DNA of 39,079 bases from Acidimicrobiia bacterium (GCA_036559825.1 DATBSK010000044.1:1-39079); one strand, 5' to 3'. Shown: positions 1-39,079, counted from the stretch's first letter. Notes: generated by a model from the letters alone, not told the origin. Made by a program: numbers and translations.

Positions 1-423
1 CTGCTCGCGCCAGTACACCGACGCGTGGTGCATCGTGTTCCAGGTGCCGTACATGTGCACCTTCACGACGGTGTCGAAGTCCTCGGGGGCCATCGAGAAC
101 ATCATCCGGTCGCGCAGGACTCCTGCGTTGTTCACGAGGACGTCGAGCCGGCCGAACGAGTCGAGCGCCGCCTTCACGATTCCCGCGGCGCCGTCGAAGT
201 CGGCGACGCTGTCGTAGCTCGCGACGGCCTCGCCGCCGCGCTGCTCGATGACCTTCACGACCTCGTCGGCGACCTTGGCGTCGGCTCCCTCACCGGTGAC
301 CGACCCACCGAGGTCGTTGACGACGACCTTCGCGCCGTGGTCCGCCAGCAGGACCGCCTCGCCACGCCCGACTCCGTTGCCGGCGCCGGTGACGATCGCG
401 ACCTTGCCGTCCAGCATGCCCAT
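1..423 (-). CDS. SDR-family oxidoreductase (hydroxyacyl-CoA dehydrogenase-like), N-terminal 141 codons; the gene runs off the left edge
   Basis: Absent from the ORF track because it has no in-window stop. Reverse translation from ATG 423-421 gives MGMLDGKVAIVTGAGNGVGRGEAVLLADHGAKVVVNDLGG...LDVLVNNAGVLRDR, with the TGxxxGxG Rossmann motif and the NNAG motif. Minus-strand Shine-Dalgarno GAGGAGGAAGGA at 431-442. Confidence 0.85.
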   Translation of the reverse strand, partial: MGMLDGKVAIVTGAGNGVGRGEAVLLADHGAKVVVNDLGGSVTGEGADAKVADEVVKVIEQRGGEAVASYDSVADFDGAAGIVKAALDSFGRLDVLVNNAGVLRDRMMFSMAPEDFDTVVKVHMYGTWNTMHHASVYWREQ

Positions 424-6477: not shown

Positions 6478-6924
6478 TCAGGCGAGCACCCACCGGGGGA
6501 GCGTGACGTCCTCGACCTGCTGGAACACGACCCGGACCGGCGCCCCGATGACGATCGTCGCCGGATCGACCTCGTTGATCGGACCGTCCGGTCGGGCAAG
6601 CAGGTTCCCCACCATCCGCAGCGTCGGATCCTCGTCGAGCGCCACGACGATCACGTTGTAGGGCGCGAGCTCGGCGTACGCCGGGAGCAGCGGCGGGTGC
6701 GGGACGACGAACGACCAGATCGTGGCCCGGCCCGATACCGGCACCCACTCGACCGCCGTGGAGCGGCAGCGCGCGCACATCGGACGAGGCGGGAACCGCG
6801 CCGTCTGACACGCGCCGCAGCGCTGGACGAGCAGCTCGTGGCGCGCGCACCCGGCCCAGAACTCCTCCGCGTCCTCGCTCTCGACGTCGGGGAGCAGGAA
6901 GCCCGTCGCCATCTCCGTCACCAT
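6478..6924 (-). CDS. DUF35 Zn-ribbon/OB-fold protein (partner of SCP-x-type thiolases)
   Basis: CGACQTARFPPRPMCARC (CxxC...CxxC rubredoxin-like ribbon) followed by an OB-fold segment ATIWSFVV...YNVIVVALDE. Confidence 0.9.
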   Translation of the reverse strand: MVTEMATGFLLPDVESEDAEEFWAGCARHELLVQRCGACQTARFPPRPMCARCRSTAVEWVPVSGRATIWSFVVPHPPLLPAYAELAPYNVIVVALDEDPTLRMVGNLLARPDGPINEVDPATIVIGAPVRVVFQQVEDVTLPRWVLA

Positions 6925-6992
6925 GGCTCGCTCACTGCGCCTCGGGGTACCCGAGCCGCGGCCGTTCGCTCACGTGGCGTCATCTGCGTCAC
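6918..6992 (-). repeat. Intergenic structured element (family copy E) forming a 24-codon bridging mini-ORF
   Basis: Sense sequence: GTGACGCAGATGACGCCACGTGAGCGAACGGCCGCGGCTCGGGTACCCCGAGGCGCAGTGAGCGAGCCATGGTGA. The GTG (6992-6990) overlaps the thiolase TGA (6991-6989). The TGA (6920-6918) overlaps the GTG directly after the DUF35 ATG. Hairpin CTCGGG-TAC-CCCGAG lies at 6941-6955. Confidence 0.6.
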
Positions 6993-8164
6993 CGCCTCAG
7001 TAAGAGAGCGCTCGTCGGCACACCCTCGCCGCTCGTGACGAGGCAGCAGTCGGCGCTCTCGACCTGACAGGTCGAGGTCCCACGCATCTGGCGGACACCT
7101 TCGAGCACCAGGTTGAAGCCGTGCACGTAGGCCTCGGACATCCCGCCGCCGCTCGTGTTCGTCGGCAGCCGGCCCTCGGGCCACTCGAGCGCACCGTCCT
7201 CGGTGAACGCCCCGCCGTCACCGCGGTCGCAGAACCCGTAGCCCTCGAGCGACAGCGGCACGAGCGGGCTGAACGCGTCGTAGATCTGAGCGACCTGCAC
7301 GTCCGCGGGTGCGAACTCCGAACCGTGCCAGAGGCGCCTCGCGGCCGCCCACGACGGTCCGGCGAGCGGATCCTCGTTGAAGTAGTTGATCATCGTCTGG
7401 TGCTGCGGAGGGATGCCTTGCGCGCCCGTGTGCACGTAGACGGGTGGGTGGGGCAGATCCGGCGCGCGCTCGGCAGGGACGAGGACGATCGCGAGCGCGC
7501 CGTCCGTCTCGAGACAGTTGTCGAAGAGACACAGCGGCTCGGAGATCCAGCGCGCCTCCAGGTAGTGCTCGCGCGTCAGCGGCTTCTCGTACATCGTGGC
7601 CGCCGGATTCTGGTTGGCATGCTTGCGAAACGCGAGTGCGACGTTCGCGAGGTGGTCGCGGGTCGCGCCGAACTCGTGGATGTACCGGCGGGTCAGCATC
7701 GCGACCTCGTCGACGGGTCGCAGCAGTCCCCAGGGCCGGCTCCACTGCCAGTGGTCGCTCAGCCGCTGCGGGACCTGCGCCCAGGGCCGGCTCGACTTCG
7801 CGGCACGCTTTCGCGCTCGCCACGCCACGGCGACGGTGCACTGCCCGGTCGCGACTCCCATCGCGGCTTGGAGCACGACGCCGCACCCCGCGCCGCCCCC
7901 GTAGCCGACCTGTGAGAAGAACGTGATGTCGCCGAGGCCGACGTTGCGCGCCACGTCGACCTCGCGGTTCGGCTCCATCGTGAACGACGCCAGCCCGTCG
8001 ACCTCCGCAGGCGCGATGCCCGCGTCGTCGAGCGCGGCGGAGATCGCCTGGCATGCGAGCGAGAGCTCGGTGTCGGGCAGCCCCTTGCCGAACGCGGTCT
8101 GGCCGATGCCGACGATCGCGACGCGGTCGCGCAGCACCGAGTCCGTGCGCGGCATCGTCACCAC
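6989..8164 (-). CDS. Thiolase-like lipid-transfer protein (SCP-x/Ltp type, non-acetoacetyl-CoA thiolase)
   Basis: VAIVGIGQTAFGK...ELSLACQAISAALDDAGIAPAEVDG and C-terminal NTSGGGMSEAYVHGFN are typical of Ltp-type thiolases paired with DUF35. The start is ambiguous: GTG 8164, GTG 8161 or ATG 8155. Confidence 0.9.
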   Translation of the reverse strand: MVTMPRTDSVLRDRVAIVGIGQTAFGKGLPDTELSLACQAISAALDDAGIAPAEVDGLASFTMEPNREVDVARNVGLGDITFFSQVGYGGGAGCGVVLQAAMGVATGQCTVAVAWRARKRAAKSSRPWAQVPQRLSDHWQWSRPWGLLRPVDEVAMLTRRYIHEFGATRDHLANVALAFRKHANQNPAATMYEKPLTREHYLEARWISEPLCLFDNCLETDGALAIVLVPAERAPDLPHPPVYVHTGAQGIPPQHQTMINYFNEDPLAGPSWAAARRLWHGSEFAPADVQVAQIYDAFSPLVPLSLEGYGFCDRGDGGAFTEDGALEWPEGRLPTNTSGGGMSEAYVHGFNLVLEGVRQMRGTSTCQVESADCCLVTSGEGVPTSALLLRR

Positions 8165-8311
8165 CCCGCCTTCATGGCGTCGCTCGCTGCGGCCCGGGAT
8201 ACCCGGTCCGCAGCCGCTTGCTCCGCACCCACCCTCACCAACCCGCCTTCATGGCGTCGCTCGCTGCGGCCCGGGATACCCGGTCCGCGGCCGCTTGCTC
8301 CGCACCCACCC
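8158..8311 (-). repeat. 2 x 77-bp tandem repeat (family copies B1 8235-8311 and B2 8158-8234), MIRU-like
   Basis: Sense unit: GGGTGGGTGCGGAGCAAGCGGC[C/T]GCGGACCGGGTATCCCGGGCCGCAGCGAGCGACGCCATGAAGGCGGG[T/G]TGGTGA. The two units are 75/77 identical. Each carries the hairpin GCGGACCGGG-TAT-CCCGGGCCGC (10-bp stem, 1 mismatch) and a 26-codon ORF. Confidence 0.9.
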
Positions 8312-9154
8312 TCACCACCCCTTGAACTCCGTCGGGCGGCGCTCGAGGAAGCTCGCGACACCCTCCTTGGAGTCCTCGGTGGCCGCGACCAGCTCCACCA
8401 GCAGGGACTCCTCCTCGAACAGCGTCGCCCGGTCCACGTCGAGCGATCGGTTGAGCAGCCGCTTCGCGAAGCCGATCGTCTTCGTCGGGCCCTGGGCCAG
8501 GCGGCCGGCCCACTCGCTCGCGGTCGCGCGCAGCTCCGCGGCCGGCACGACCTTGTTCACGAGTCCGATCCGCTCCGCATCGGCTGCGGCGAGGTCGTCG
8601 CCGAAGAAGACGAGCTCCTTCGCCCGCTGCAGACCGACGAGGCGGGGGAGCAGGTACGTCGGCCCGCCGTCCGGGATGAGCCCACGTCGGACGAAGACCT
8701 GGATGATGCGCGCATGGTCGGCGGCCACGACGAGGTCGGACGCGAGCACCATCGCCGCACCGCCACCCGCCGCGGTGCCGTTCAGCGCGCACAGGATCGG
8801 CTTCTCGCAGTCGAGCATCGCCCCGATCAGGCGCTGGATGCCGGTCCGGATCATCCGTGCCGCCTCACCCGAGACGCGCTCGGGCGCTCCCTCGGGCTTG
8901 GGCGGCGGGGCCGCCCGGCCCGTCCGCAGGTCCGCGCCGGTGCAGAAGTGCTTCTCGCCCGCAGCGGTGAGCACCACGGCGCGCACGTCGAACGAGGTGT
9001 TCGCGTCGCTCAGGTGCTCGATGATCCGGTTGCGCACGGTGGGCGTGATCGCGTTCCCCGCGTCGGGTCGGTTGAGCGTCAGCCAGAGCACCTGCTCGCG
9101 CAGCTCCGCGAGCAGCTCCTGGTCGACGTCGACCTCGTTCACCGTGTCGGTCAC
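8312..9154 (-). CDS. Enoyl-CoA hydratase/isomerase (crotonase) family protein
   Basis: LWLTLNRPDAGNAIT...VVLTAAGEKHFCTGADL...NGTAAGGGAAMVLASD is the crotonase fold signature. Confidence 0.92.
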   Translation of the reverse strand: MTDTVNEVDVDQELLAELREQVLWLTLNRPDAGNAITPTVRNRIIEHLSDANTSFDVRAVVLTAAGEKHFCTGADLRTGRAAPPPKPEGAPERVSGEAARMIRTGIQRLIGAMLDCEKPILCALNGTAAGGGAAMVLASDLVVAADHARIIQVFVRRGLIPDGGPTYLLPRLVGLQRAKELVFFGDDLAAADAERIGLVNKVVPAAELRATASEWAGRLAQGPTKTIGFAKRLLNRSLDVDRATLFEEESLLVELVAATEDSKEGVASFLERRPTEFKGW

Positions 9155-9161
9155 GGGGTGC

Positions 9162-11357
9162 TCACTTCCTCACCACGAGGGCGTCCAGGGCGATCGCGCC
9201 GCGGGGGCGGACGATCAGCGGGTTGATGTCCAGCTCGGCGAGCTGGACGTCGAAGTCGGGGCACGCGAGATCGATCGCGAGCCGTTGCACGTTCATGATC
9301 GCGTCGACGAGAGCGTCCACGTCGGGCCGAGACGCCCCGCGCACGCCCTGCAGCAGCGCTCGCCCCGCGAGATCGTCGAGCATCCGGCGGGCCTCGGCGC
9401 GCCCGAACGGTGGAACGCGGAACGTGACGTCGCCGAGGGCCTCGACGAGCACGCCACCCAGGCCGGTCATCACGACGGGACCGAACAGCGGGTCCTGCGA
9501 CACGCCCACGACCGCCTCGACGCCGCCGTCGACCTGCTCGCACACGAGGATCCCCTCCACCCGACCGCGCGTGCCGGCGGCGCGCCGAGCGCGCGTCATG
9601 AGCTCTTCGAACACCGCCCGCACCTCGCTCGCACCGTGCACACCGACGTGCACGAGACCGAGCTCGGTCTTGTGTGCGAGCTCCGGTCCGCTGGCCTTCA
9701 TCACGACGGGCCGACCGCGGGTGCCGGCCATCGAGCGCGCCGCCCGCGCGGCTTGCGCGGCGCTCGTGCACAGCACGTCGCGCGTCGTCGTCACGCCGTA
9801 GGCGCGCAGCAGCTGCTTCGACTCGTGCTCTGAGAGCGCGGCTCCGGGCTCCGCTCCGGCGAGGATGCGCCGCGCCGCGGACGCTGCTCCGGACGGCCGC
9901 CGCGGTGCGCTCGGGAACGGCGAGCGGTAGCGGCGGGCGAACTGCCAGTAATCGACGTACGCGCGGACCGCGCCGACGCAGTTGCCGAAGGTGCGGAACA
10001 CGGGCAGGCCGCCGTCGAGGAGGCGCCGGTAGTACGTGTCGTCCGTGCCGGGAGGCGATCCCCACACCACGAAGATCGGCTTGGACGTCGTGCGCGCGAC
10101 GTCGATGAGATCACGGGTGAACGGGTCGCTGAACATCGCAACCGCACCGGTGATGGGCACGACGAGGACGTCGATGTTGGGGTCGCCGAGGACGGCGTCG
10201 AGGATCTTGCGGCCCCGCTCGTCGGCGACCGGCGGACCGCCGCAGTCGATCGGGTTCGACACCCGCAGGTACTGCGGGATGAGGCCGTCGTGCAGCGTGC
10301 GCTGGGTCGCCGCGGTCAAGGGCGGCATCCGCAGGCCCGCAGCGGCCACGAGATCTGCCATGTGCGCGCCGGTCCCTCCGGAGATCGCGTAGACCGCGAT
10401 GCCTGGCCCGCGGGTGCCCCAGCTCGGCGGTGACGCGGGGCGCGTGCGCGCCAGCGCGGCCGGGATCTCGAGGAGCTCGTCGAGCCCGTCGACGCGGGTG
10501 ATGCCGTACTGGCGGAACGCCGCCGAGACGACGCGGTCGGAACCGGCGAGGTGCCCGGTGTGCGCCTTCGCCATCGAGGCACCGGCGTCGGTGCGCCCGA
10601 CCTTCACGCAGACGATCGGCACGCGCCGGCGGGCCGCGTGATCGGCCGCGAGGAGCAGCGAGCGGCCGTCCGTGAACCCTTCGACGTAGGCCGCGATGAC
10701 GCCGACCTCGGGCTGGTCCGAGAAGTAGCGGACGAAGTCGGCGAACTCGAGATCCACCTCGTTGCCCGTGGGCGCCCAGTGCGACAGCCGGATCCCGAGC
10801 TCCTGACCCTGGAACACGGGTCGACCCTGGTGGCCGCTCTGGGTCACGAGGGCGATCGCCGGCCCGCCGAGGTCGGTGCGAAAGTCCTCGAACGCGTTGA
10901 GGTTCGTGTTCGGACCGAGCAACCGCGTGTCGCCGTCGCGTGCCAGCTGCCGCAGCCGTGCTTCGAGCGCCTCTCCCTGAGCGCCCGACTCGCCGAAGCC
11001 GGCGGCGAAGATGACCGCGAAGCGGGCCTTGCGTGCCACGACGTCGGCGAACGCCGGCACCGCGTCCCCGGTCAGGATGACCGCGAGGTCGATGTCGCCC
11101 GGCACGTCGTCGACGGACGCGACACAGGGGACGCCGAGCACCTCGGTGCGCGTCGGGTGCACCGGCGTGAAGGTCGCGCCGTGGGCGTCCGCCCAGTCCT
11201 TGATGCGCCTGGTCATCGTCGCGTTCGGCTTGCGCGGCGCGTCCGAGGCGCCGATGACGGCGACCGAGCGCGGATGCAGGAACACGTCGAGATCGACGTC
11301 GCGCAGCGCGAGCGGCCGGCCCGTCACGTCGGTGCCCACCGGTGCCGCGCGTCCCAC
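9162..11357 (-). CDS. ADP-forming (NDP-forming) acyl-CoA synthetase, fused alpha/beta (CoA-binding + ligase-CoA + ATP-grasp)
   Basis: FLHPRSVAVIGASDAPRKP (CoA-binding start), ...GPNTNLNAF..., C-terminal ATP-grasp EHESKQLLRAYGV...VVMKASGPELAHKTELGLV. GTG 11357 is the longest start. GTG 11327 is an alternative. Confidence 0.9.
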   Translation of the reverse strand: MGRAAPVGTDVTGRPLALRDVDLDVFLHPRSVAVIGASDAPRKPNATMTRRIKDWADAHGATFTPVHPTRTEVLGVPCVASVDDVPGDIDLAVILTGDAVPAFADVVARKARFAVIFAAGFGESGAQGEALEARLRQLARDGDTRLLGPNTNLNAFEDFRTDLGGPAIALVTQSGHQGRPVFQGQELGIRLSHWAPTGNEVDLEFADFVRYFSDQPEVGVIAAYVEGFTDGRSLLLAADHAARRRVPIVCVKVGRTDAGASMAKAHTGHLAGSDRVVSAAFRQYGITRVDGLDELLEIPAALARTRPASPPSWGTRGPGIAVYAISGGTGAHMADLVAAAGLRMPPLTAATQRTLHDGLIPQYLRVSNPIDCGGPPVADERGRKILDAVLGDPNIDVLVVPITGAVAMFSDPFTRDLIDVARTTSKPIFVVWGSPPGTDDTYYRRLLDGGLPVFRTFGNCVGAVRAYVDYWQFARRYRSPFPSAPRRPSGAASAARRILAGAEPGAALSEHESKQLLRAYGVTTTRDVLCTSAAQAARAARSMAGTRGRPVVMKASGPELAHKTELGLVHVGVHGASEVRAVFEELMTRARRAAGTRGRVEGILVCEQVDGGVEAVVGVSQDPLFGPVVMTGLGGVLVEALGDVTFRVPPFGRAEARRMLDDLAGRALLQGVRGASRPDVDALVDAIMNVQRLAIDLACPDFDVQLAELDINPLIVRPRGAIALDALVVRK

Positions 11358-16157: not shown

Positions 16158-16592
16158 ATGGCCGACGAAGCCCACGAGCGCATCGCGGTGGCCGCGCCGC
16201 CGAGCCGGCTCTGGGAGATCGCGACCGACTACGAGCGTTATCCCTCGTGGGCCCGGGACGTCAAGCACGTCGAGGTGCTCGATCGGGACAGCCAGGGACG
16301 TGGCAAGCGGGTCGAGTACCGCGTCGCCGGATTGGGAAAGAGCATCCGCTACGTGCTCGAGTACGAGTACGAGGACGCACCGACGGCGTTCTCGTGGCAC
16401 TTCGTGGAAGGTGACTGGTTGCGCAAGCTGGACGGGCGGTACGGGTTCGAGCCCGAGGCTGACGGGACCCGCGTGACCTACGACCTCGTGGTCGATGTCT
16501 CCGCCCCGCTCCCGGGGCTGATCAAGCGCCGCGCCGCGAGCATGATCATGGGCACCGCCCTCAAGGAGCTGAAGAAGGAGGCGGAGCGATGA
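16158..16592 (+). CDS. SRPBCC (START/polyketide cyclase-dehydrase-like) family protein
   Basis: IAVAAPPSRLWEIATDYERYPSWARDVKHVEVL...WLRKLDGRYGFEP is a typical Polyketide_cyc2-type sequence, similar in layout to mycobacterial TB16.3. Confidence 0.85.
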   Translation: MADEAHERIAVAAPPSRLWEIATDYERYPSWARDVKHVEVLDRDSQGRGKRVEYRVAGLGKSIRYVLEYEYEDAPTAFSWHFVEGDWLRKLDGRYGFEPEADGTRVTYDLVVDVSAPLPGLIKRRAASMIMGTALKELKKEAER

Positions 16593-16726
16593 GCGAGCGT
16601 CTCGCGAGCCGGGTAACCCGGCTCGTAGCGAGCGGGGCAGGAGCCGTCGCTTGCGACGGCGACCCGGAAGGACAGCGGCAGGCGCGAAGCGCCCTGCGGC
16701 GAAGCCGCAAGGAGCGGGAAGGATGA
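16589..16726 (+). repeat. Intergenic structured element (family copy A, 134-bp insert) forming a 45-codon bridging ORF
   Basis: ATG 16589 overlaps the SRPBCC TGA (ATGA). TGA 16724-16726 overlaps the next gene's ATG 16723 (ATGA). Peptide: MSERLASRVTRLVASGAGAVACDGDPEGQRQARSALRRSRKEREG. Four stem-loops at 16605-16625, 16643-16660, 16681-16693 and 16696-16708. Confidence 0.6.
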
Positions 16727-27056: not shown

Positions 27057-28102
27057 CGCAACGCGCGACCGAGCAGCCGGTCGACCTCCGCTCGGACACG
27101 GTCACGAAGCCGACGGCCGCCATGCGCGCCGCGATGGCGGCGGCAGAGGTCGGCGACGACGGCTACCGCGAGGATCCGACGCTGAACCGACTCGAAGAGC
27201 TCGCCGCGAGCATGTTCGGCACCGAAGCGGCGCTCTTCACCGCGTCCGGGACCATGGCGAACCAGATCGCGCTGCGGGTCCTCGCGGTCGCGGGCAGCGA
27301 GGTGCTGTGCCCGCGGCGCTGCCACGTCGCCCGCTACGAGCACGCGGCGGCGGCACGCAACGCCGGCGTCCAGCTGCGTGGGCTGACCGATGACGACGGG
27401 TACGTGTCGCCGGGGGACGTCGAGCAGGCACTCGCCGACCAGGGGCACCACCTCCCGCCGGTCTCGGCGATGCTGCTCGAGAACACGCACATGCCCGCGA
27501 GCGGTCGGCCGCTCTCGGTGGAGGCGACGGTGTCGATGGCGGCACCGGCGCGCGCGGCAGGGGTGCGCGTGCACCTCGACGGCGCGCGCCTCTGGAACGC
27601 CGCGCTCGCGCTCGGGACGACGCCGGCCGCGCTCGCTCGCCCCGCCGACACCGTCATGGCGTGCCTCTCGAAGGGACTCGGGGCCCCGATGGGTTCGGTG
27701 CTCGGCGGGCCTGCCGACGTCATCGACGCCGCGCGCCGTGAGCGTGCGCTCCTCGGTGGCAACCTCCGCCAGGGTGGCGTGGTCGCCGCAGCCGGCATCG
27801 TCGCGCTCGAGACGATGATCGAGCGTCTCGCGGACGACCACCGCCGCGCCCGCCGGCTCGCGGAGGCACTCGCCGACCTCTTCCCCGGGAGCATCGACCC
27901 CGACGGCGTCCTCACGAACATCGTGTGCGCGCCTCTGTCGGCGTTCCCGCGCGACCTCGTCGCGCGGCTCGACGCACAAGGCGTGCGCTGCGGCACGATC
28001 GACGCGCGAACCGTGCGCTTCGTCACCCATCTCGATGTCGATGACACCGGGACCGAGCACGCGATCTGCGCGTTGAGCGCGATCGCTCACGAGAGGAGCT
28101 GA
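27053..28102 (+). CDS. ltaE: Low-specificity L-threonine aldolase (beta-eliminating lyase family, PLP)
   Basis: VDLRSDTVTKPT...GDDGYREDPT...FTASGTMANQ...CLSKGLGAP (PLP lysine). GTGA overlap with the tesB stop. Confidence 0.9.
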   Translation: MTQRATEQPVDLRSDTVTKPTAAMRAAMAAAEVGDDGYREDPTLNRLEELAASMFGTEAALFTASGTMANQIALRVLAVAGSEVLCPRRCHVARYEHAAAARNAGVQLRGLTDDDGYVSPGDVEQALADQGHHLPPVSAMLLENTHMPASGRPLSVEATVSMAAPARAAGVRVHLDGARLWNAALALGTTPAALARPADTVMACLSKGLGAPMGSVLGGPADVIDAARRERALLGGNLRQGGVVAAAGIVALETMIERLADDHRRARRLAEALADLFPGSIDPDGVLTNIVCAPLSAFPRDLVARLDAQGVRCGTIDARTVRFVTHLDVDDTGTEHAICALSAIAHERS

Positions 28103-33178: not shown

Positions 33179-33628
33179 GTGGGGTACTCGGCCACCCAGG
33201 CGGCGCGGCTCGCCGGGTGCACCCCCGCCCAGCTCGAGAGCTGGGACCGAGCGGGGCTCGTCCGCACCCGGCCCGGTGACGACGGCCCGTACGCGTTCCG
33301 CGACCTCGTCGCCCTGCGCATGGTCCGCTCGCTGCTCGACGCCGGGCTCTCGCTCGGGCGGATCCGACGCGCCGTCACCGAGCTGGCCCAGGGTGGTGAG
33401 GAGCTCGCAGAGCTCCGCCTCGTGACCGACGGCGACCACGTGTGGGCCTGCCGCGACGACGGGCAGATCCTGGACGCGCTCGGCCGCGGTCAGCTCGCGC
33501 TGTTCGTCGCCGTGGACCGCCTGGCAGCCGAGGTGGAGGCCGAGGTGCGCGAGTTCTCCCGCGATCGACAGACGTTCCTCGACGACCTCCGATCCGACGG
33601 CCGCGACGACCACCCGGCCAGCTCCTAG
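33179..33628 (+). CDS. MerR-like helix-turn-helix protein
   Basis: YSATQAARLAGCTPAQLESWDRAGLV...YAFRDLVALRMVRSLLDAGLSLGRIRRAV. GTG start. Confidence 0.75.
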   Translation: MGYSATQAARLAGCTPAQLESWDRAGLVRTRPGDDGPYAFRDLVALRMVRSLLDAGLSLGRIRRAVTELAQGGEELAELRLVTDGDHVWACRDDGQILDALGRGQLALFVAVDRLAAEVEAEVREFSRDRQTFLDDLRSDGRDDHPASS

Positions 33629-37111: not shown

Positions 37112-38089
37112 TCAGCCGGTGGCGCCCGGGACGCGCACCAGCTCGACGACCGAGCGGATGACGTCGACGCCGCGCACGCCTCGGAGGCCGGCCTCGGGCG
37201 TGGTGATGATCCGATGCTCCAGGATGCTCGGCGCGAGCGCCTTGACGTCGTCGGGGATCACGTAGTCACGGCCCGACGACGCCGCGTACGCGCGCGCGGC
37301 GCGTTGGAGCGCGAGCGCGCCGCGGGGGCTGACGCCGAGCACGAGATCATGGTGGCGCCGGGTCGCGTCGGCGAGATCGACGATGTAGTGCTGGATGGCG
37401 GGAGCCACGTGCACCATCGTGACCGCGTCGGCGGCGGCCGCGACGTCGGCCGCCGAGGCGACCGGCTCCAGCGAGTCGACGCGCAGGTGGCCGGTGCCGG
37501 AGCCGTGCGTGTCGAGGATCGCGACCTCCGCGTCCCGGCTCGGGTACCCGATGGGCAGCCGCATCAGGAAGCGGTCGAGCTGGGCCTCGGGGAGGGGATA
37601 TGTGCCCTCGAGCTCGATGGGGTTCTGGGTCGCGATCACGAGGAACGGACGCGGCAGCGAGTACGTCCGTGCGTCGACCGTGACCTGGCGTTCCTCCATC
37701 GCCTCGAGCAGCGCAGACTGCGTCTTCGGCGACGCGCGATTGATCTCGTCGGCGAGCACGACGTGCGCGAAGACGCCACCGGGGCGGAACTCGAACTCGT
37801 TCGTGGCCCGGTTCCAGACCGACACCCCGAGCACGTCCGACGGGAGGAGGTCCGGTGTGAACTGGATCCGGTTCGCGCTCGCGGCGATGGACCGCGCGAG
37901 CGCCTTGGCGAGGGACGTCTTGCCCACACCGGGGACGTCCTCGACGAGGAGGTGGCCTTCCGCGAGCAGGCACACGAGCGCGAGCGACACCTGTTCGCGC
38001 TTTCCCTGGATCACGCGCTCGATGTTGCCGAGCAGCACGTCGAAGAGGGCCGCCACGTCGACCCGACGCGCGGCAACGGGTTGCGCCAT
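37112..38089 (-). CDS. MoxR-family AAA+ ATPase
   Basis: HLLVEDVPGVGKTSLAKALA (Walker A), VVLADEINRASPKTQSALLEAMEERQVTV (Walker B/sensor), full-length 325 aa. Confidence 0.95.
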   Translation of the reverse strand: MAQPVAARRVDVAALFDVLLGNIERVIQGKREQVSLALVCLLAEGHLLVEDVPGVGKTSLAKALARSIAASANRIQFTPDLLPSDVLGVSVWNRATNEFEFRPGGVFAHVVLADEINRASPKTQSALLEAMEERQVTVDARTYSLPRPFLVIATQNPIELEGTYPLPEAQLDRFLMRLPIGYPSRDAEVAILDTHGSGTGHLRVDSLEPVASAADVAAAADAVTMVHVAPAIQHYIVDLADATRRHHDLVLGVSPRGALALQRAARAYAASSGRDYVIPDDVKALAPSILEHRIITTPEAGLRGVRGVDVIRSVVELVRVPGATG

Positions 38090-38101
38090 TGCTAGGGACT
38101 C

Positions 38102-38440
38102 GTGGGAACGCTCGCGTGCTCCACGGATGGCGACGGTAGCAGCGCGTCTCGACGGTACCGTGACCGCGTGCGGCGCCGACGCGGATCGTGGCTCGCCGCG
38201 CTCGCGGGCATCGCGGCGCGACCGTGGCTCTGGGGCGAAGCGGTCGCGGCGAGCGTGCGCATGGCGCGGCCGCGCTGGTGGCGGCGGCCCCCGTTCCTGC
38301 CCGTTCCGGACAGCTCGTACGTCGCCTTCCGCCTCGAGACCCAGTACGGCTCGGACGGCGCCCCGGCGCGGCGCGACCTGGTCACCTACCTCGAGTGGTG
38401 CCGCTCGCAGCGCGCCATCATGCGCCGGGCCCGCCGGTAG
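38102..38440 (+). CDS. Hypothetical Arg/Trp-rich small protein
   Basis: ...AARPWLWGEAVAASVRMARPRWWRRPPFLPVPDSSYVAFRLETQYG...LVTYLEWCR. The start is uncertain: GTG 38102 leaves only 12 bp to moxR, so GTG 38168 is more plausible. No recognisable domain. Confidence 0.45.
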   Translation: MGTLACSTDGDGSSASRRYRDRVRRRRGSWLAALAGIAARPWLWGEAVAASVRMARPRWWRRPPFLPVPDSSYVAFRLETQYGSDGAPARRDLVTYLEWCRSQRAIMRRARR

Positions 38441-38473
38441 CCCTCATTACACTCACCACGCAACGCACGCACC

Positions 38474-38524
38474 GGGAGCGAGCGTGGAGCGGGCCCGGGC
38501 ATCCCGGGCCCGGAGCGAGCGAGC
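38474..38524 (+). repeat. Intergenic structured element (family copy C) upstream of, or fused in frame to, the HNH gene
   Basis: GGGAGCGAGCGTGGAGC-GGGCCCGGG-CAT-CCCGGGCCC-GGAGCGAGCGAGC. Perfect 9-bp stem at 38491-38511, flanked by direct GAGCGAGCG boxes. Confidence 0.5.
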
Positions 38525-38537
38525 AAGGGGAGATGGC

Positions 38538-39047
38538 TTGGGGAGAGCGCTGCTGCTCAACGCCACCTTCGAGCCCCTCTGCGTCGTGTCCGCCCGGCGG
38601 GCCGTCGTGCTCGTGCTCAAGGCGAAGGCGGAGGTCGTGGAACGCAACGGCGCCGCCTTCCGCTCGGAGCGCGCGGTCATCCCGGTCCCGTCGGTGGTGC
38701 GCCTCACGCACTTCGTGCGCGTCCCGTACCGGACCCGCGTGCCCCTGTCGCGGCGCGCGGTGTTCGCCCGTGACGGGCATCGCTGTCAGTACTGCGGCCG
38801 CAGCGCCGAGAACCTCGACCACGTCCTCCCGCGCTCGCGGGGCGGAACGCACAGCTGGGACAACGTCGTCGCCTCCTGCCGTCCGTGCAACGCGCGCAAG
38901 GAGGACCGGCTCCCTCAGGAGGCGGGCCTCCGCCTGCGCCGCGCGCCCGCCGTCCCCCACGCCGACCTCTGGCTGATCGCGACCGCCGGCGCGCTCGACC
39001 CCGCCTGGACGCCCTACCTCCCAGGCCTGGAGGCCGTCCCCGCCTAG
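38538..39047 (+). CDS. HNH endonuclease family protein
   Basis: LLLNATFEPLCVVSARRAV..., HNH core RDGHRCQYCG...LDHVLPRSRGGTHSWDNVVASCRPCNARK. TTG 38538 is preceded by AAGGGGAG at 5-nt spacing. An in-frame GTG at 38484 is an alternative. Confidence 0.85.
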   Translation: MGRALLLNATFEPLCVVSARRAVVLVLKAKAEVVERNGAAFRSERAVIPVPSVVRLTHFVRVPYRTRVPLSRRAVFARDGHRCQYCGRSAENLDHVLPRSRGGTHSWDNVVASCRPCNARKEDRLPQEAGLRLRRAPAVPHADLWLIATAGALDPAWTPYLPGLEAVPA

Positions 39048-39079
39048 GCACACCACCCCGCGCCGGGCCGGGGAGAGGG

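What the first reader, a model, noticed from the sequence alone, without database searches (positions are those of the whole stretch)
8158..8315. Two 77-bp tandem units between the crotonase and thiolase genes, each a 26-codon mini-ORF chained by GTGA stop/start overlaps (MIRU-like)
- **Seen directly, repeat units:** 8235-8311 and 8158-8234 are 75/77 identical.
- **Seen directly, overlap chain (sense = minus strand):**
  - The crotonase stop TGA (8314-8312) is overlapped by GTG 8315-8313.
  - That GTG opens an 81-nt ORF (V/M-RVGAEQAAADRVSRAAASDAMKAGW) ending at TGA 8237-8235.
  - That TGA is overlapped by GTG 8238-8236, which opens a second ORF with the identical peptide, ending at TGA 8160-8158.
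  - That TGA is in turn overlapped by GTG 8161-8159, in frame with the thiolase (ATG 8155).
  - The result is an unbroken chain: gene, GTGA, miniORF, GTGA, miniORF, GTGA, gene.
- **Seen directly, substitutions:** both differences between the units (GCC/GCT and GGT/GGG) fall on third codon positions and are synonymous in the mini-ORF frame.
- **Seen directly, structure:** each unit carries the hairpin GCGGACCGGG-TAT-CCCGGGCCGC.
- **Seen directly, junction mimicry:** the unit's 3-prime end (AAGGCGGGKTGGTGA) mimics the crotonase 3-prime end (AAGGGGTGGTGA). It looks as if a GTGA-coupled gene junction had been duplicated.
- **Established knowledge:** mycobacterial interspersed repetitive units (MIRUs, M. 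tuberculosis complex) are roughly 40-100-bp tandem repeats in intra-operon spacers. They contain small ORFs whose ends overlap the flanking stop and start codons.
- **Inference:** this is the same architecture in what does not look like a Mycobacterium tuberculosis-complex sequence, so it may be an undescribed MIRU-like family. The array is a candidate VNTR locus.
Basis: partly seen in the sequence, partly recalled or inferred. Interest (0 to 1): 0.75.

Follow-up and report, generated by a model that had tools for sequence, protein, structure and literature searches.

The report
Hairpin repeat units with relay mini-ORFs
Two copies of a small hairpin-containing repeat sit between two fatty-acid-degradation genes of an uncultured Acidimicrobiia bacterium, each readable as a tiny gene that could pass ribosomes on to the next gene; they belong to a large, apparently undescribed repeat family that is built like the MIRU repeats of tuberculosis bacteria but is unrelated to them in sequence.

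Summary
Window 8158-8234 and 8235-8311 are 75/77 identical. On the minus strand they form the chain crotonase, GTGA, 26-codon ORF, GTGA, 26-codon ORF, GTGA, thiolase.

It is a recent insertion. Four close relatives (89-92% crotonase identity) have the stop codon directly followed by the thiolase start. An independent contig with the identical thiolase holds at least a partial third unit.

The 55-nt core of each unit belongs to a large family seen almost only in Acidimicrobiia MAGs. The core is GAGCGAGCG, a 10-bp stem with a UAU loop, then AGCGAGCG. The window holds five copies at four sites.

- The stem shows strong, strand-specific covariation.
- Copies are mostly sense to the flanking genes (35:10).
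- Sense copies between co-directional genes are usually bridged by one ORF with NTGA overlaps at both ends, in any of three frames, so the peptide is not conserved.

A real 77-bp M. tuberculosis MIRU shows no sequence similarity, and MIRUs are defined as lacking dyad symmetry.

Verdict: a new hairpin-bearing interspersed repeat family, MIRU-like in architecture only. Its mode of spread and the translation of the mini-ORFs remain untested.

The parts
8312..9154 (-). Enoyl-CoA hydratase (crotonase) gene. Its stop TGA 8314-8312 is the first link of the overlap chain. Its last 10 nt (8321-8312, GGGGTGGTGA) are the partial third repeat copy.
   Evidence: Pfam ECH_1, E 1.3e-53. TRF array extends to 8321. 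The ...TGG TGA ending is shared by most relatives.
8235..8311 (-). Repeat unit 1 (77 bp). Mini-ORF 1 runs from GTG 8315-8313 to TGA 8237-8235 (26 codons plus stop).
8158..8234 (-). Repeat unit 2 (77 bp). Mini-ORF 2 runs from GTG 8238-8236 to TGA 8160-8158. Its last 10 nt plus CGATG recreate the ancestral junction ...TGGTGACGATG.
   Evidence: The ancestral junction is seen in L122.
8252..8306 (-). 55-nt family core of unit 1: GAGCAAGCG, hairpin 8288-8266, AGCGAGCGA.
   Evidence: Family model R1, 64.6 bits, E 1.6e-10. Exact hairpin match.
8175..8229 (-). 55-nt family core of unit 2; hairpin 8211-8189.
   Evidence: R1, 63.7 bits.. Predicted hairpin within a fold of -32 kcal/mol, z -2.85.
6989..8155 (-). 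SCP-x-type thiolase gene, the downstream partner of the chain. Alternative in-frame starts are GTG 8161 and GTG 8164.
   Evidence: Pfam Thiolase_C_1 and Thiolase_N. N-terminus compared with L002 and L004.
6918..6992 (-). Single related element between the thiolase and the DUF35/ChsH2-type gene. Core is 6923-6977. Relay ORF runs from GTG 6992-6990 (GTGA with the thiolase stop) to TGA 6920-6918, overlapping ATG 6924 of the next gene. Flanked by a 13-nt direct repeat GGTGACG[C/G]AGATG.
   Evidence: R1, 62.3 bits.. Absent in L002, L004 and L203.
16585..16726 (+). Related element (core 16585-16640 plus two further small hairpins) between a polyketide-cyclase-like gene and a small ORF. The 45-codon relay ORF runs from ATG 16589 to TGA 16724-16726, with ATGA overlaps at both ends.
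   Evidence: R1, 63.1 bits..
38470..38527 (+). Related element in the leader of an HNH-endonuclease-like gene (start TTG 38538), in a divergent intergenic region. No relay ORF.
   Evidence: R1, 43.1 bits..

Best explanation
The two 77-bp units are tandem copies of one member of an abundant, lineage-restricted family of small interspersed repeats of Acidimicrobiia.

- **Core.** The family core is about 55 nt: a (GAGC)n-like motif GAGCGAGCG, a 10-bp stem with a UAY triloop, and a second AGCGAGCG.
- **Insertion.** One element was inserted directly after the crotonase stop codon, together with a duplicate of the last ~10 nt of the gene (GGGGTGGTGA, stop included). Unequal recombination or slippage between those direct repeats then amplified element plus duplicate as a 77-bp unit.
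- **Chain logic.** Each unit ends with a copy of the stop codon, and 77 = 3n+2. A start codon overlapping each stop (GTGA) therefore opens an ORF that ends exactly at the next copy. The last copy keeps the native stop/SD/start context of the thiolase.
- **Proposed function of the chain.** Ribosomes that finish the crotonase can re-initiate and be relayed across 154 nt of inserted RNA, melting the hairpins, to the thiolase start. I read the mini-ORFs as a relay that selection (or the insertion geometry) preserves, not as peptide genes.
- **Role of the hairpin.** The hairpin with its flanking motifs is the part under sequence and structure constraint. It is probably read on the transcript strand, either for propagation of the element or as an RNA stem-loop.

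**Shown:** insertion polymorphism, family membership, hairpin covariation, orientation and phase bias.
**Inferred:** translation of the mini-ORFs, coupling, how the units amplified, how the element spreads.
For: **Recent insertion**
- Empty junctions in L002 (92% crotonase identity), L202 (92%), L203 (91%) and L004 (89%).
- Most of about 30 further relatives have spacers of at most 30 nt, e.g. L122 ...TGGTGACGATG.
- No hit of the family model in 250 kb of orthologous operons.
- L004's genome is empty here but carries copies elsewhere (L036).

**Family**
Nearly all are from Acidimicrobiia or unnamed Actinomycetota MAGs.
- Model R1 gives 119 hits at E < 1e-3 in loci L002-L101, none of them in the loci from other phyla.
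- The window holds five copies at four sites.

**Structure**
- 88.8% of cells paired.
- 106 double-change cells, against 30.7 in shuffles.
- Covariation score 0.313, against about 0.04 when the partners are slid.
- G.U 21 against A.C 3, so the structure is strand-specific.
- 35 of 99 copies have tandem G.A/A.G in place of two pairs.
- The inner stem also covaries, e.g. GCACG-TAT-CGTGC and CAGG-TAC-CCTG.

**Orientation**
- 35 sense against 10 antisense between co-directional genes (p = 2.5e-4).

**Relay ORFs**
- About 20 of 35 sense sites have one ORF with NTGA overlaps at both ends.
- The frame offset between flanking genes is +1 in 20 of 32 sites (chi-square p = 0.002).
- The upstream stop is [AGT]TGA in 22 of 32 sites, against a 37.6% background (p = 3.5e-4).
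- Tandem periods 77, 86, 56 and 68 are all 2 mod 3.

**Peptide not conserved**
- Three frames are used (RVSR, GYP, GIP).
- There is no third-position excess of variation.

**Selection for coupling at this junction**
- Unrelated inserts in L121, L153, L124, L130 and L003 are each bridged by an ORF from the crotonase stop to the thiolase start.

**Not a regulon motif**
- Downstream genes include nuoH, tuf, rplD, dnaJ, proS, truB, miaB and ybeY.

**Other**
- Copy number: L001, with the identical thiolase, has two full units plus 17 nt of a third at its contig edge.
- No promoter-like or terminator-like site lies in the spacer.
Against: - No mobilising enzyme or autonomous partner was found. The one inverted pair examined flanks an ordinary gene.
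- Flanking direct repeats are not a general family feature. The mean best repeat is 7.5 nt against 6.6 in the control, and identity around the two stops is 10.8 against 9.6. A transposase-type target duplication is therefore unsupported outside this window.
- Copies within one genome share only the core and differ in their stems by compensatory changes. That fits selection on each copy (a host function) as well as it fits several proliferating sublineages.
- About a fifth of copies are antisense and lack relay ORFs.
- Some tandem periods (55, 57, 100, 117 nt) are not 2 mod 3.
- Translation of the mini-ORFs is untested.
- Gene calls behind the statistics are crude GC3-based calls, and at least one site was misclassified.
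- The source genome itself could not be scanned, and the exact 32-mer is absent from the metagenome collection.
- The copy-number difference rests on a contig end in a short-read assembly.
Confidence: 0.6

Rival explanations
1. A host-selected cis-acting RNA element. The stem-loop with its GAGCGAGCG flanks would be a binding or processing site (a stabiliser against exonucleases, an RNase site, or an RNA-binding-protein site) recruited to many transcripts. On this view the repeats are kept for that function, and the mini-ORFs merely allow ribosomes to pass.
For: - The structure is strand-specific (G.U 21 against A.C 3) and copies are mostly sense.
- Stems differ between copies of one genome through compensatory changes, which suggests each copy is under selection.
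- The orthologous thiolase|DUF35 copies in the window and in L003 keep the pairing with different stems.
- The loop UAY is nearly invariant.
- Copies lie in leaders and spacers of highly expressed genes such as tuf and rplD.
Against: - Close relatives do without it at the same junctions.
- The distance from the hairpin to the next start codon ranges from about 0 to 90 nt.
- Downstream functions are unrelated to one another.
- Antisense copies exist.
- There is no Rfam match.
- Tandem amplification and lineage-specific stem variants look like repeat-element dynamics.
Confidence: 0.25
2. A REP/REPIN-type DNA element. The hairpin would be recognised on single-stranded DNA by a RAYT- or IS200/IS605-like Y1 transposase that mobilises the copies.
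For: - Size and form fit: a 23-nt imperfect palindrome that is extragenic and abundant.
- Strand specificity of the stem would also fit recognition of one DNA strand.
Against: - No conserved GTAG-type 5' tetranucleotide.
- Copies are direct tandems, not inverted doublets.
- Orientation follows the local genes in all four window sites on both strands. A 78% sense fraction exceeds what a ~60% leading-strand gene bias could give (p = 0.009).
- No such transposase gene was seen next to copies, although only one inverted pair was inspected.
Confidence: 0.1
3. A genuine but highly diverged member of the mycobacterial MIRU family, with common descent within Actinomycetota.
For: - Same unit length (77 bp).
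- Same class of location, and a small ORF per unit with overlapping ends.
- Both contain AGCG-rich stretches (GCAGAGCGTAGCGATGAGG in MIRU, GCAGCGAGCGACGCCATGAAGG here).
Against: - R1 scores the MIRU at 3.3 bits, E 4.5.
- The best local alignment scores 15, against a shuffled mean of 16.6.
- The MIRU overlap is 1 nt (TGATG) rather than 4 nt.
- MIRUs are defined as lacking dyad symmetry.
- No Mycobacterium appears among the scan hits.
Confidence: 0.03
4. The mini-ORFs encode a functional 26-residue peptide (two identical copies).
For: - The two units differ only by synonymous third-position changes.
- The related thiolase|DUF35 element is read in the same frame and gives a similar peptide (..AAARVPRGAVSE..).
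Against: - Two substitutions are not statistics.
- Across the family all three frames through the hairpin are used.
- Variation shows no codon periodicity: 0.84, 0.80 and 0.69 bits at codon positions 1, 2 and 3.
- There is no Pfam hit.
- Conservation follows base pairing, not codons.
Confidence: 0.03
5. A purely local event or an artefact: a one-off tandem duplication of a spacer, or an assembly error, with no wider meaning.
For: Only two units are present, and no identical unit occurs elsewhere in the window.
Against: - An independent metagenome contig carries the same units.
- The core matches a family of hundreds of copies at 64 bits.
Confidence: 0.02

Closest known systems
MIRU (mycobacterial interspersed repetitive units; Supply et al. 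1997, as summarised in PMC4473831 and PMC12548453)
   Same: - Direct tandem units of 40-100 bp; both the canonical MIRU and these units are 77 bp.
- They lie in spacers between genes of an operon and are dispersed at many loci.
- Each unit holds a small ORF whose ends overlap the neighbouring stop and start codons.
- Unit length is 2 mod 3.
- Copy number is probably variable.
- The inserted ORF is presumed to keep the downstream gene translationally coupled.
   Different: - No sequence similarity.
- A conserved, covarying 10-bp hairpin is the core here, whereas MIRUs are defined as lacking dyad symmetry.
- The overlap is 4 nt (GTGA/ATGA) rather than 1 nt (TGATG).
- Orientation is a 78% bias, not a rule.
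- Many copies are single and sit in leaders.
- The host is Acidimicrobiia, not Mycobacterium.
REP / BIME / REPIN elements and their RAYT transposases
   Same: - Short, imperfect, GC-rich palindromes.
- Extragenic and present in very many copies.
- Stems are maintained by compensatory change.
- Lineage-specific sequence variants occur.
- Copies lie within transcription units.
   Different: - No GTAG-like head.
- Arranged as direct tandem units, not inverted doublets.
- Strongly sense-biased.
- Positioned at stop/start junctions with relay ORFs.
- No RAYT was identified (not testable genome-wide here).
RPE (Rickettsia palindromic elements) and other translation-compatible insertions
   Same: A palindromic repeat that survives inside expressed regions because it remains compatible with translation.
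   Different: RPEs insert in frame inside protein genes and become part of the protein. Here the element forms its own separate ORF between genes.
Relay / leader short ORFs in translational coupling (termination-reinitiation; 'bicistronic design')
   Same: A short ORF whose only apparent role is to deliver ribosomes to the next start codon through a 4-nt overlap and to unfold local structure (PMC12548453).
   Different: Here the relay ORF is carried by a repeated element and can be chained in tandem. Function is inferred, not measured.

Membership tests
MIRU | Direct tandem repeats of about 40-100 bp | tested here: met
   Period 77, 2.1 copies, 96% matches. Other arrays of the family have periods of 55-117 nt.
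MIRU | Located in intergenic spacers between genes of an operon | tested here: met
   The units lie between co-directional ECH and thiolase genes, with no promoter-like or terminator-like site. At family level, many copies also lie in leaders or between divergent or convergent genes.
MIRU | Small ORFs whose ends overlap the stop and start of the contiguous ORFs | tested here: met
   GTGA overlaps at all three junctions. About 20 of 35 sense family sites show the same arrangement, with significant phase and context statistics.
MIRU | Same orientation as the adjacent genes | tested here: inconclusive
   Met at all four window sites. Across the family the count is 35 sense against 10 antisense, and at least four antisense sites were checked by hand.
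MIRU | Absence of dyad symmetry (PMC4473831) | tested here: not met
   A 10-bp stem with a 3-nt loop, 88.8% paired over 99 copies, covariation 0.313 against 0.04 when slid.
MIRU | Sequence similarity to the MIRU consensus | tested here: not met
   The real senX3-regX3 MIRU was fetched (L201). R1 scores it 3.3 bits, E 4.5. The local alignment scores 15 against a shuffled mean of 16.6.
MIRU | Copy-number polymorphism between strains (VNTR) | tested here: inconclusive
   Two units in the window, against two full units plus 17 nt of a third at the edge of L001. Both are assemblies that may break or collapse in repeats.
REP/REPIN | Imperfect palindrome of 20-40 nt, extragenic, in many copies | tested here: met
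REP/REPIN | Conserved 5' GTAG-type tetranucleotide and arrangement as inverted doublets | tested here: not met
   The flanks are GAGCGAGCG and AGCGAGCG in direct orientation, and arrays are head-to-tail.
REP/REPIN | Cognate RAYT (Y1 transposase) gene in the genome, flanked by the repeats | not testable with these tools
   Whole genomes cannot be scanned. The one inverted pair inspected (L036) flanks an ordinary small gene.
MITE | Terminal inverted repeats and a target-site duplication of fixed length | tested here: not met
   No terminal inverted repeats. Flanking direct repeats are 10 and 13 nt at two window sites but are not general.
Any Rfam RNA family | Match to a curated covariance model | tested here: not met
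   No match at gathering score in the window. Only chance-level hits at E up to 10 in 6850-8400.

The most novel reading that the evidence does not exclude
The family could be a previously unrecognised kind of strand-specific mobile module that targets overlapping stop/start junctions (RTGA). On this reading it installs its own relay ORF: a portable cassette of hairpin, (GAGC)n and start codon. Insertion into essential, highly expressed operons (tuf, rplD, nuo) would then be harmless by design.

The hairpin and the GCGAGC repeats would be the recognition site of an unknown enzyme. Alternatively, given the variable 10- and 13-nt flanking duplications, they could be the handle of an RNA-mediated copy mechanism.
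Probability: 0.15. Interest if true: 0.8.

Novelty: new variant of a known kind. Interest (0 to 1): 0.6.

Why it matters
- **Convergent architecture.** It would show that the MIRU architecture (repeat units that carry their own translationally coupled mini-ORF) is not peculiar to mycobacteria. A second, unrelated family has arrived at it in another actinobacterial class, down to unit lengths of 2 mod 3. That makes the idea that inserted relay ORFs preserve coupling testable by comparison: sense against antisense copies, occupied against empty junctions.
- **A missing annotation.** It adds a covariation-supported hairpin family that is absent from Rfam but frequent in Acidimicrobiia MAGs.
- **Practical consequences.**
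  - Such units break short-read assemblies; L001 ends inside the array.
  - They mislead gene callers into N-terminal extensions.
  - They could serve as VNTR markers for strain tracking of uncultured Acidimicrobiia.

Tried and rejected
- **blastn-short of the unit against the window.** It found only the two units. The related copies are too diverged outside the core and were found through hairpin, motif and covariance-model searches instead.
- **Sixth copy at 33320-33361.** Rejected: it has no hairpin and lies inside a coding ORF.
- **Idea that the crotonase C-terminal Trp came from the repeat.** Rejected, because ...GW* is the common ending in relatives.
- **General target-site duplication.** Not supported.
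- **Exact 32-mer scan of metagenome contigs.** No match, so other loci with the identical unit could not be found.
- **Viral contigs.** No match.
- **Whole-spacer folding energies.** Uninformative: z = -1.2 for the sense strand.
- **Regulon hypothesis.** Rejected, because downstream genes are diverse.
- **Transposase next to an inverted pair (L036).** None seen.
- **P0001 contig (93% identical crotonase, 91-nt gap after the gene).** No DNA was available.
- **Literature searches.** Searches for an Acidimicrobiia repeat family, for 'MIRU-like' and for the core sequence found nothing relevant.
Full report
**1. The observation**

The window has 72.5% G+C. Tandem Repeats Finder reports one strong array at 8158-8321: period 77, 2.1 copies, 96% matches, score 314. 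The two full units (8158-8234 and 8235-8311) are 75/77 identical and differ at 8164 and 8212.

- Crotonase stop TGA 8314-8312 is overlapped by GTG 8315.
- An 81-nt ORF runs to TGA 8237-8235, which is overlapped by GTG 8238.
- A second 81-nt ORF runs to TGA 8160-8158, which is overlapped by GTG 8161. That GTG is in frame with the thiolase (ATG 8155).

Both ORFs give VRVGAEQAAADRVSRAAASDAMKAGW, and both differences between the units are synonymous third-position changes. The hairpin GCGGACCGGG-TAT-CCCGGGCCGC occurs twice, against none expected; its fifth pair is an A.G mismatch.

Pfam identifies the minus-strand operon:
- ADP-forming acyl-CoA synthetase (9162-11357)
- enoyl-CoA hydratase (8312-9154)
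- the repeats
- SCP-x-type thiolase (6989-8155)
- DUF35/ChsH2-type OB-fold protein (6478-6924)
- a MerR gene follows.

No promoter-like or terminator-like site lies in the spacer.

**2. Organism, and whether this is an insertion**

Crotonase homologues at 80-93% identity come from metagenomes and MAGs named Acidimicrobiia. The same operon was fetched from relatives.

Empty junctions, where the stop is directly followed by the start:
- L002 (92% crotonase identity): ...GGGTTCTGA|GTGGCC
- L004 (89%): ...TTCTAG|GTGCCC
- L202 (92%) and L203 (91%)

They also lack the element between the thiolase and DUF35.

A survey of 80 metagenomic relatives shows that most have spacers of 0-30 nt. The commonest form...AAGGGNTGG TGA CG ATG (L122), is exactly what is found at the end of the window's array. 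The gene end ...TGGTGA is therefore ancestral. Each unit ends with a copy of it, and the array is 2.13 units long with the crotonase end as the partial copy.

The family model finds nothing in 250 kb of these orthologous operons.

An independent contig (L001, JGI 3300036862) encodes the identical thiolase. It carries two full units plus 17 nt that match a unit end, not the crotonase end, at its very first bases. The array is therefore real, and L001 probably has at least three units. This is suggestive evidence of copy-number variation, not proof.

**3. A larger family**

Hairpin and motif searches found related single copies in the window:
- between the thiolase and DUF35 (core 6923-6977, minus strand)
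- at 16585-16640 (plus strand)
- at 38470-38527 (plus strand).

L003 is a 90% relative from an error-prone long-read assembly. It has its own variants at both junctions of the operon, with a different but complementary stem (GTGGCGCACG-TAT-CGTGCGCCAC).

The great majority are from Acidimicrobiia or unnamed Actinomycetota MAGs, with a few obvious chance hits in other phyla.

The aligned copies (A1, 99 sequences) have the consensus GAGCGAGCG-nCC-GCGAGC-CGGG-TAT-CCCG-GCnCGC-AGCGAGCG.

A covariance model (R1) scores the copies as follows:
- The two units: 64.6 and 63.7 bits.
- The other three window copies: 63.1, 62.3 and 43.1 bits.
- 119 hits at E < 1e-3 in the fetched loci, including copies that do not fit the search pattern, and none in the chance loci.

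A sixth window hit (33320-33361, 24.6 bits) has no hairpin and lies inside an ORF; I reject it.

Rfam has no match. The searchable literature has nothing on such a family.

**4. What is conserved**

The stem is supported by covariation:
- 88.8% of cells paired.
- 106 double-change cells, against 30.7 in shuffles.
- Covariation score 0.313, against about 0.04 when the partners are slid.

The six outer pairs were not constrained by the search pattern. Copies found only by the model show that the inner pairs covary too.

G.U pairs outnumber A.C by 21 to 3, so the structure belongs to the strand shown. In 35 of 99 copies two adjacent pairs are replaced together by G.A/A.G. The loop is TAT (80 copies) or TAC (16).

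Copies within one genome share only this ~50-nt core and differ in their stems.

Variation shows no codon periodicity in the mini-ORF frame: 0.84, 0.80 and 0.69 bits at positions 1, 2 and 3.

**5. Relation to genes**

The gene calls here are simple GC3-based calls, which are crude; one window site was misclassified.
- 105 sites were classified. Between co-directional genes, 35 are sense and 10 antisense (p = 2.5e-4; p = 0.009 even against a 60% expectation). At least four antisense sites hold up on inspection.
- All four window sites are sense, on both strands.
- Among the 35 sense sites, about 20 are bridged by a single ORF that starts at an NTGA overlap with the upstream stop and ends at an NTGA overlap with the downstream start.
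- The frame offset between the flanking genes is +1, as such a bridge requires, in 20 of 32 sites (chi-square p = 0.002).
- The upstream stop context is [AGT]TGA in 22 of 32 sites, against 37.6% of 510 gene ends (p = 3.5e-4). ATGA accounts for 10 of 32, against 11%.
- The bridges use all three frames through the hairpin (peptides with RVSR, GYP or GIP), so the peptide is not what is kept.
- Tandem arrays of 77, 86, 56 and 68 nt are 2 mod 3 and chain in the same way. Arrays of 55, 57, 100 and 117 nt do not fit.
- Antisense copies have no bridge.
- Downstream genes are unrelated in function: nuoH, hpf, ybeY, miaB, a cysteine desulfurase, tuf, rplD, proS, truB, dnaJ and several acyl-CoA dehydrogenases.

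**6. The same junction elsewhere**

Relatives carry other GAGC-rich inserts without the hairpin at the crotonase|thiolase junction:
- L121: three copies of GGAGCGAGCGAC
- L153: two units of about 65 nt
- L124 and L130.

Each of these is again bridged by an ORF from the crotonase stop to the thiolase start. Even 25-nt spacers hold relay ORFs of 3-8 codons. Only L145 has none. This argues that coupling across this junction is under selection whatever the insert is.

**7. How the 77-bp unit is built**

The insert lies directly after the TGA. The structure is [GGGGTGGTGA] + 67 nt + [GGGTTGGTGA] + 67 nt + [GGGGTGGTGA] + CGATG.

The thiolase|DUF35 element is likewise flanked by GGTGACG[C/G]AGATG, a 13-nt repeat with one mismatch.

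Such direct repeats would allow unequal recombination to amplify element plus duplicate, which is my inference for how the two units arose. They are not general in the family. I therefore do not claim a transposase-type target duplication.

**8. Comparison with real MIRUs**

MIRUs are defined by three features: no dyad symmetry, small ORFs overlapping the contiguous ORFs, and the same orientation as those ORFs (PMC4473831). They are thought to insert at start codons so that their ORF couples to the gene (PMC12548453).

I fetched the M. tuberculosis senX3-regX3 spacer (L201). It holds 3.1 units of 77 bp. Each unit carries a 78-nt ORF with a 1-nt TGATG overlap.
- R1 scores it 3.3 bits, E 4.5.
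- The best local alignment with our unit scores 15, against a shuffled mean of 16.6.

The likeness is therefore architectural (including the 77-bp length and 2 mod 3) and not a sign of homology. The hairpin is a feature that MIRUs are defined not to have.

**9. Verdict**

The finding is real. It is a recent, probably copy-number-variable insertion of a member of a new hairpin-bearing interspersed repeat family of Acidimicrobiia.

The relay-ORF architecture is a statistically supported family property of sense copies between co-directional genes.

Three things remain open:
- whether the hairpin serves the element (propagation) or the host (an RNA stem-loop)
- how copies spread
- whether the mini-ORFs are translated.

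I put 0.6 on the interspersed-repeat-with-relay-ORF reading and 0.25 on a host-selected RNA element. The rest goes to the REPIN-type, MIRU-homologue, micropeptide and artefact readings.

Noticed in passing
L121 2826-2900; L153 526-650; L124, L130, L145 (downstream of the crotonase match): The same crotonase|thiolase junction in relatives holds several unrelated GAGC-rich inserts. These include GGAGCGAGCGAC x3, a ~65-nt x2 tandem, and a 15-nt x5 'CGACCATGAGAACC' array. All but the last are bridged by an ORF from the upstream stop to the thiolase start. Even 25-nt spacers (L125, L127) contain relay ORFs of 3-8 codons.
   Followed up: partly
L098 7320-7751; L025 4826-4994; L080 1831-2053; L095 5629-5799; L034, L035, L113: Long tandem arrays of family units occur in other Acidimicrobiia MAGs: at least 7 x 55 nt, 3 x 57 nt, 4 x 56 nt, and 2-3 x 86 nt. 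The 55- and 57-nt arrays are not 2 mod 3, and their gene context was not examined.
   Followed up: no
Alignment A1, columns 36-37 with 53-55: In 35 of 99 copies two adjacent Watson-Crick pairs of the stem are replaced together by G.A/A.G (GCGAGC...GCGAGC). This either is a tandem sheared-GA motif or reflects the direct GCGAGC repeats being the selected feature.
   Followed up: partly
P0121-P0126 (M. tuberculosis RegX3 calls); L201 1501-2271: Public gene calls for RegX3 are 245-347 aa instead of 227, because the caller extended the N-terminus through the MIRU array. The same hazard applies to genes downstream of the Acidimicrobiia elements.
   Followed up: no
L004, L036, L040, L047, L062, L066, L068, L079 (GCA_964501785.1 and other 'binchicken' MAGs): These records are titled 'uncultured Bifidobacteriaceae bacterium', yet they carry the high-GC Acidimicrobiia-type operon and the repeat family. 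The taxonomic title looks wrong.
   Followed up: no
L003 10929-12080: The thiolase gene of this ENA long-read contig is broken into several calls by frameshifts, which look like assembly errors. Frames read from this locus are therefore uncertain.
   Followed up: partly
window 38533-39078 and 37112-38443: The ATG at 38533 opens a non-coding-looking frame. The real gene after the element is an HNH-endonuclease-like ORF starting at TTG 38538. The gene upstream is on the minus strand, so this element sits in a divergent intergenic region.
   Followed up: yes
window 33320-33361 (-): A hairpin-less match to the family flanks (GAGCGAGAGCCCGG...GCAGCGAGCGGACCAT, 24.6 bits) lies inside a plus-strand ORF (33179-33628). 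It is probably chance.
   Followed up: partly
window 27969-28026; window 309-423 with 1050-1164: A 30-nt x1.9 tandem repeat (TRF score 74) and a 115-nt inverted repeat at 70% complementarity. Neither was examined.
   Followed up: no
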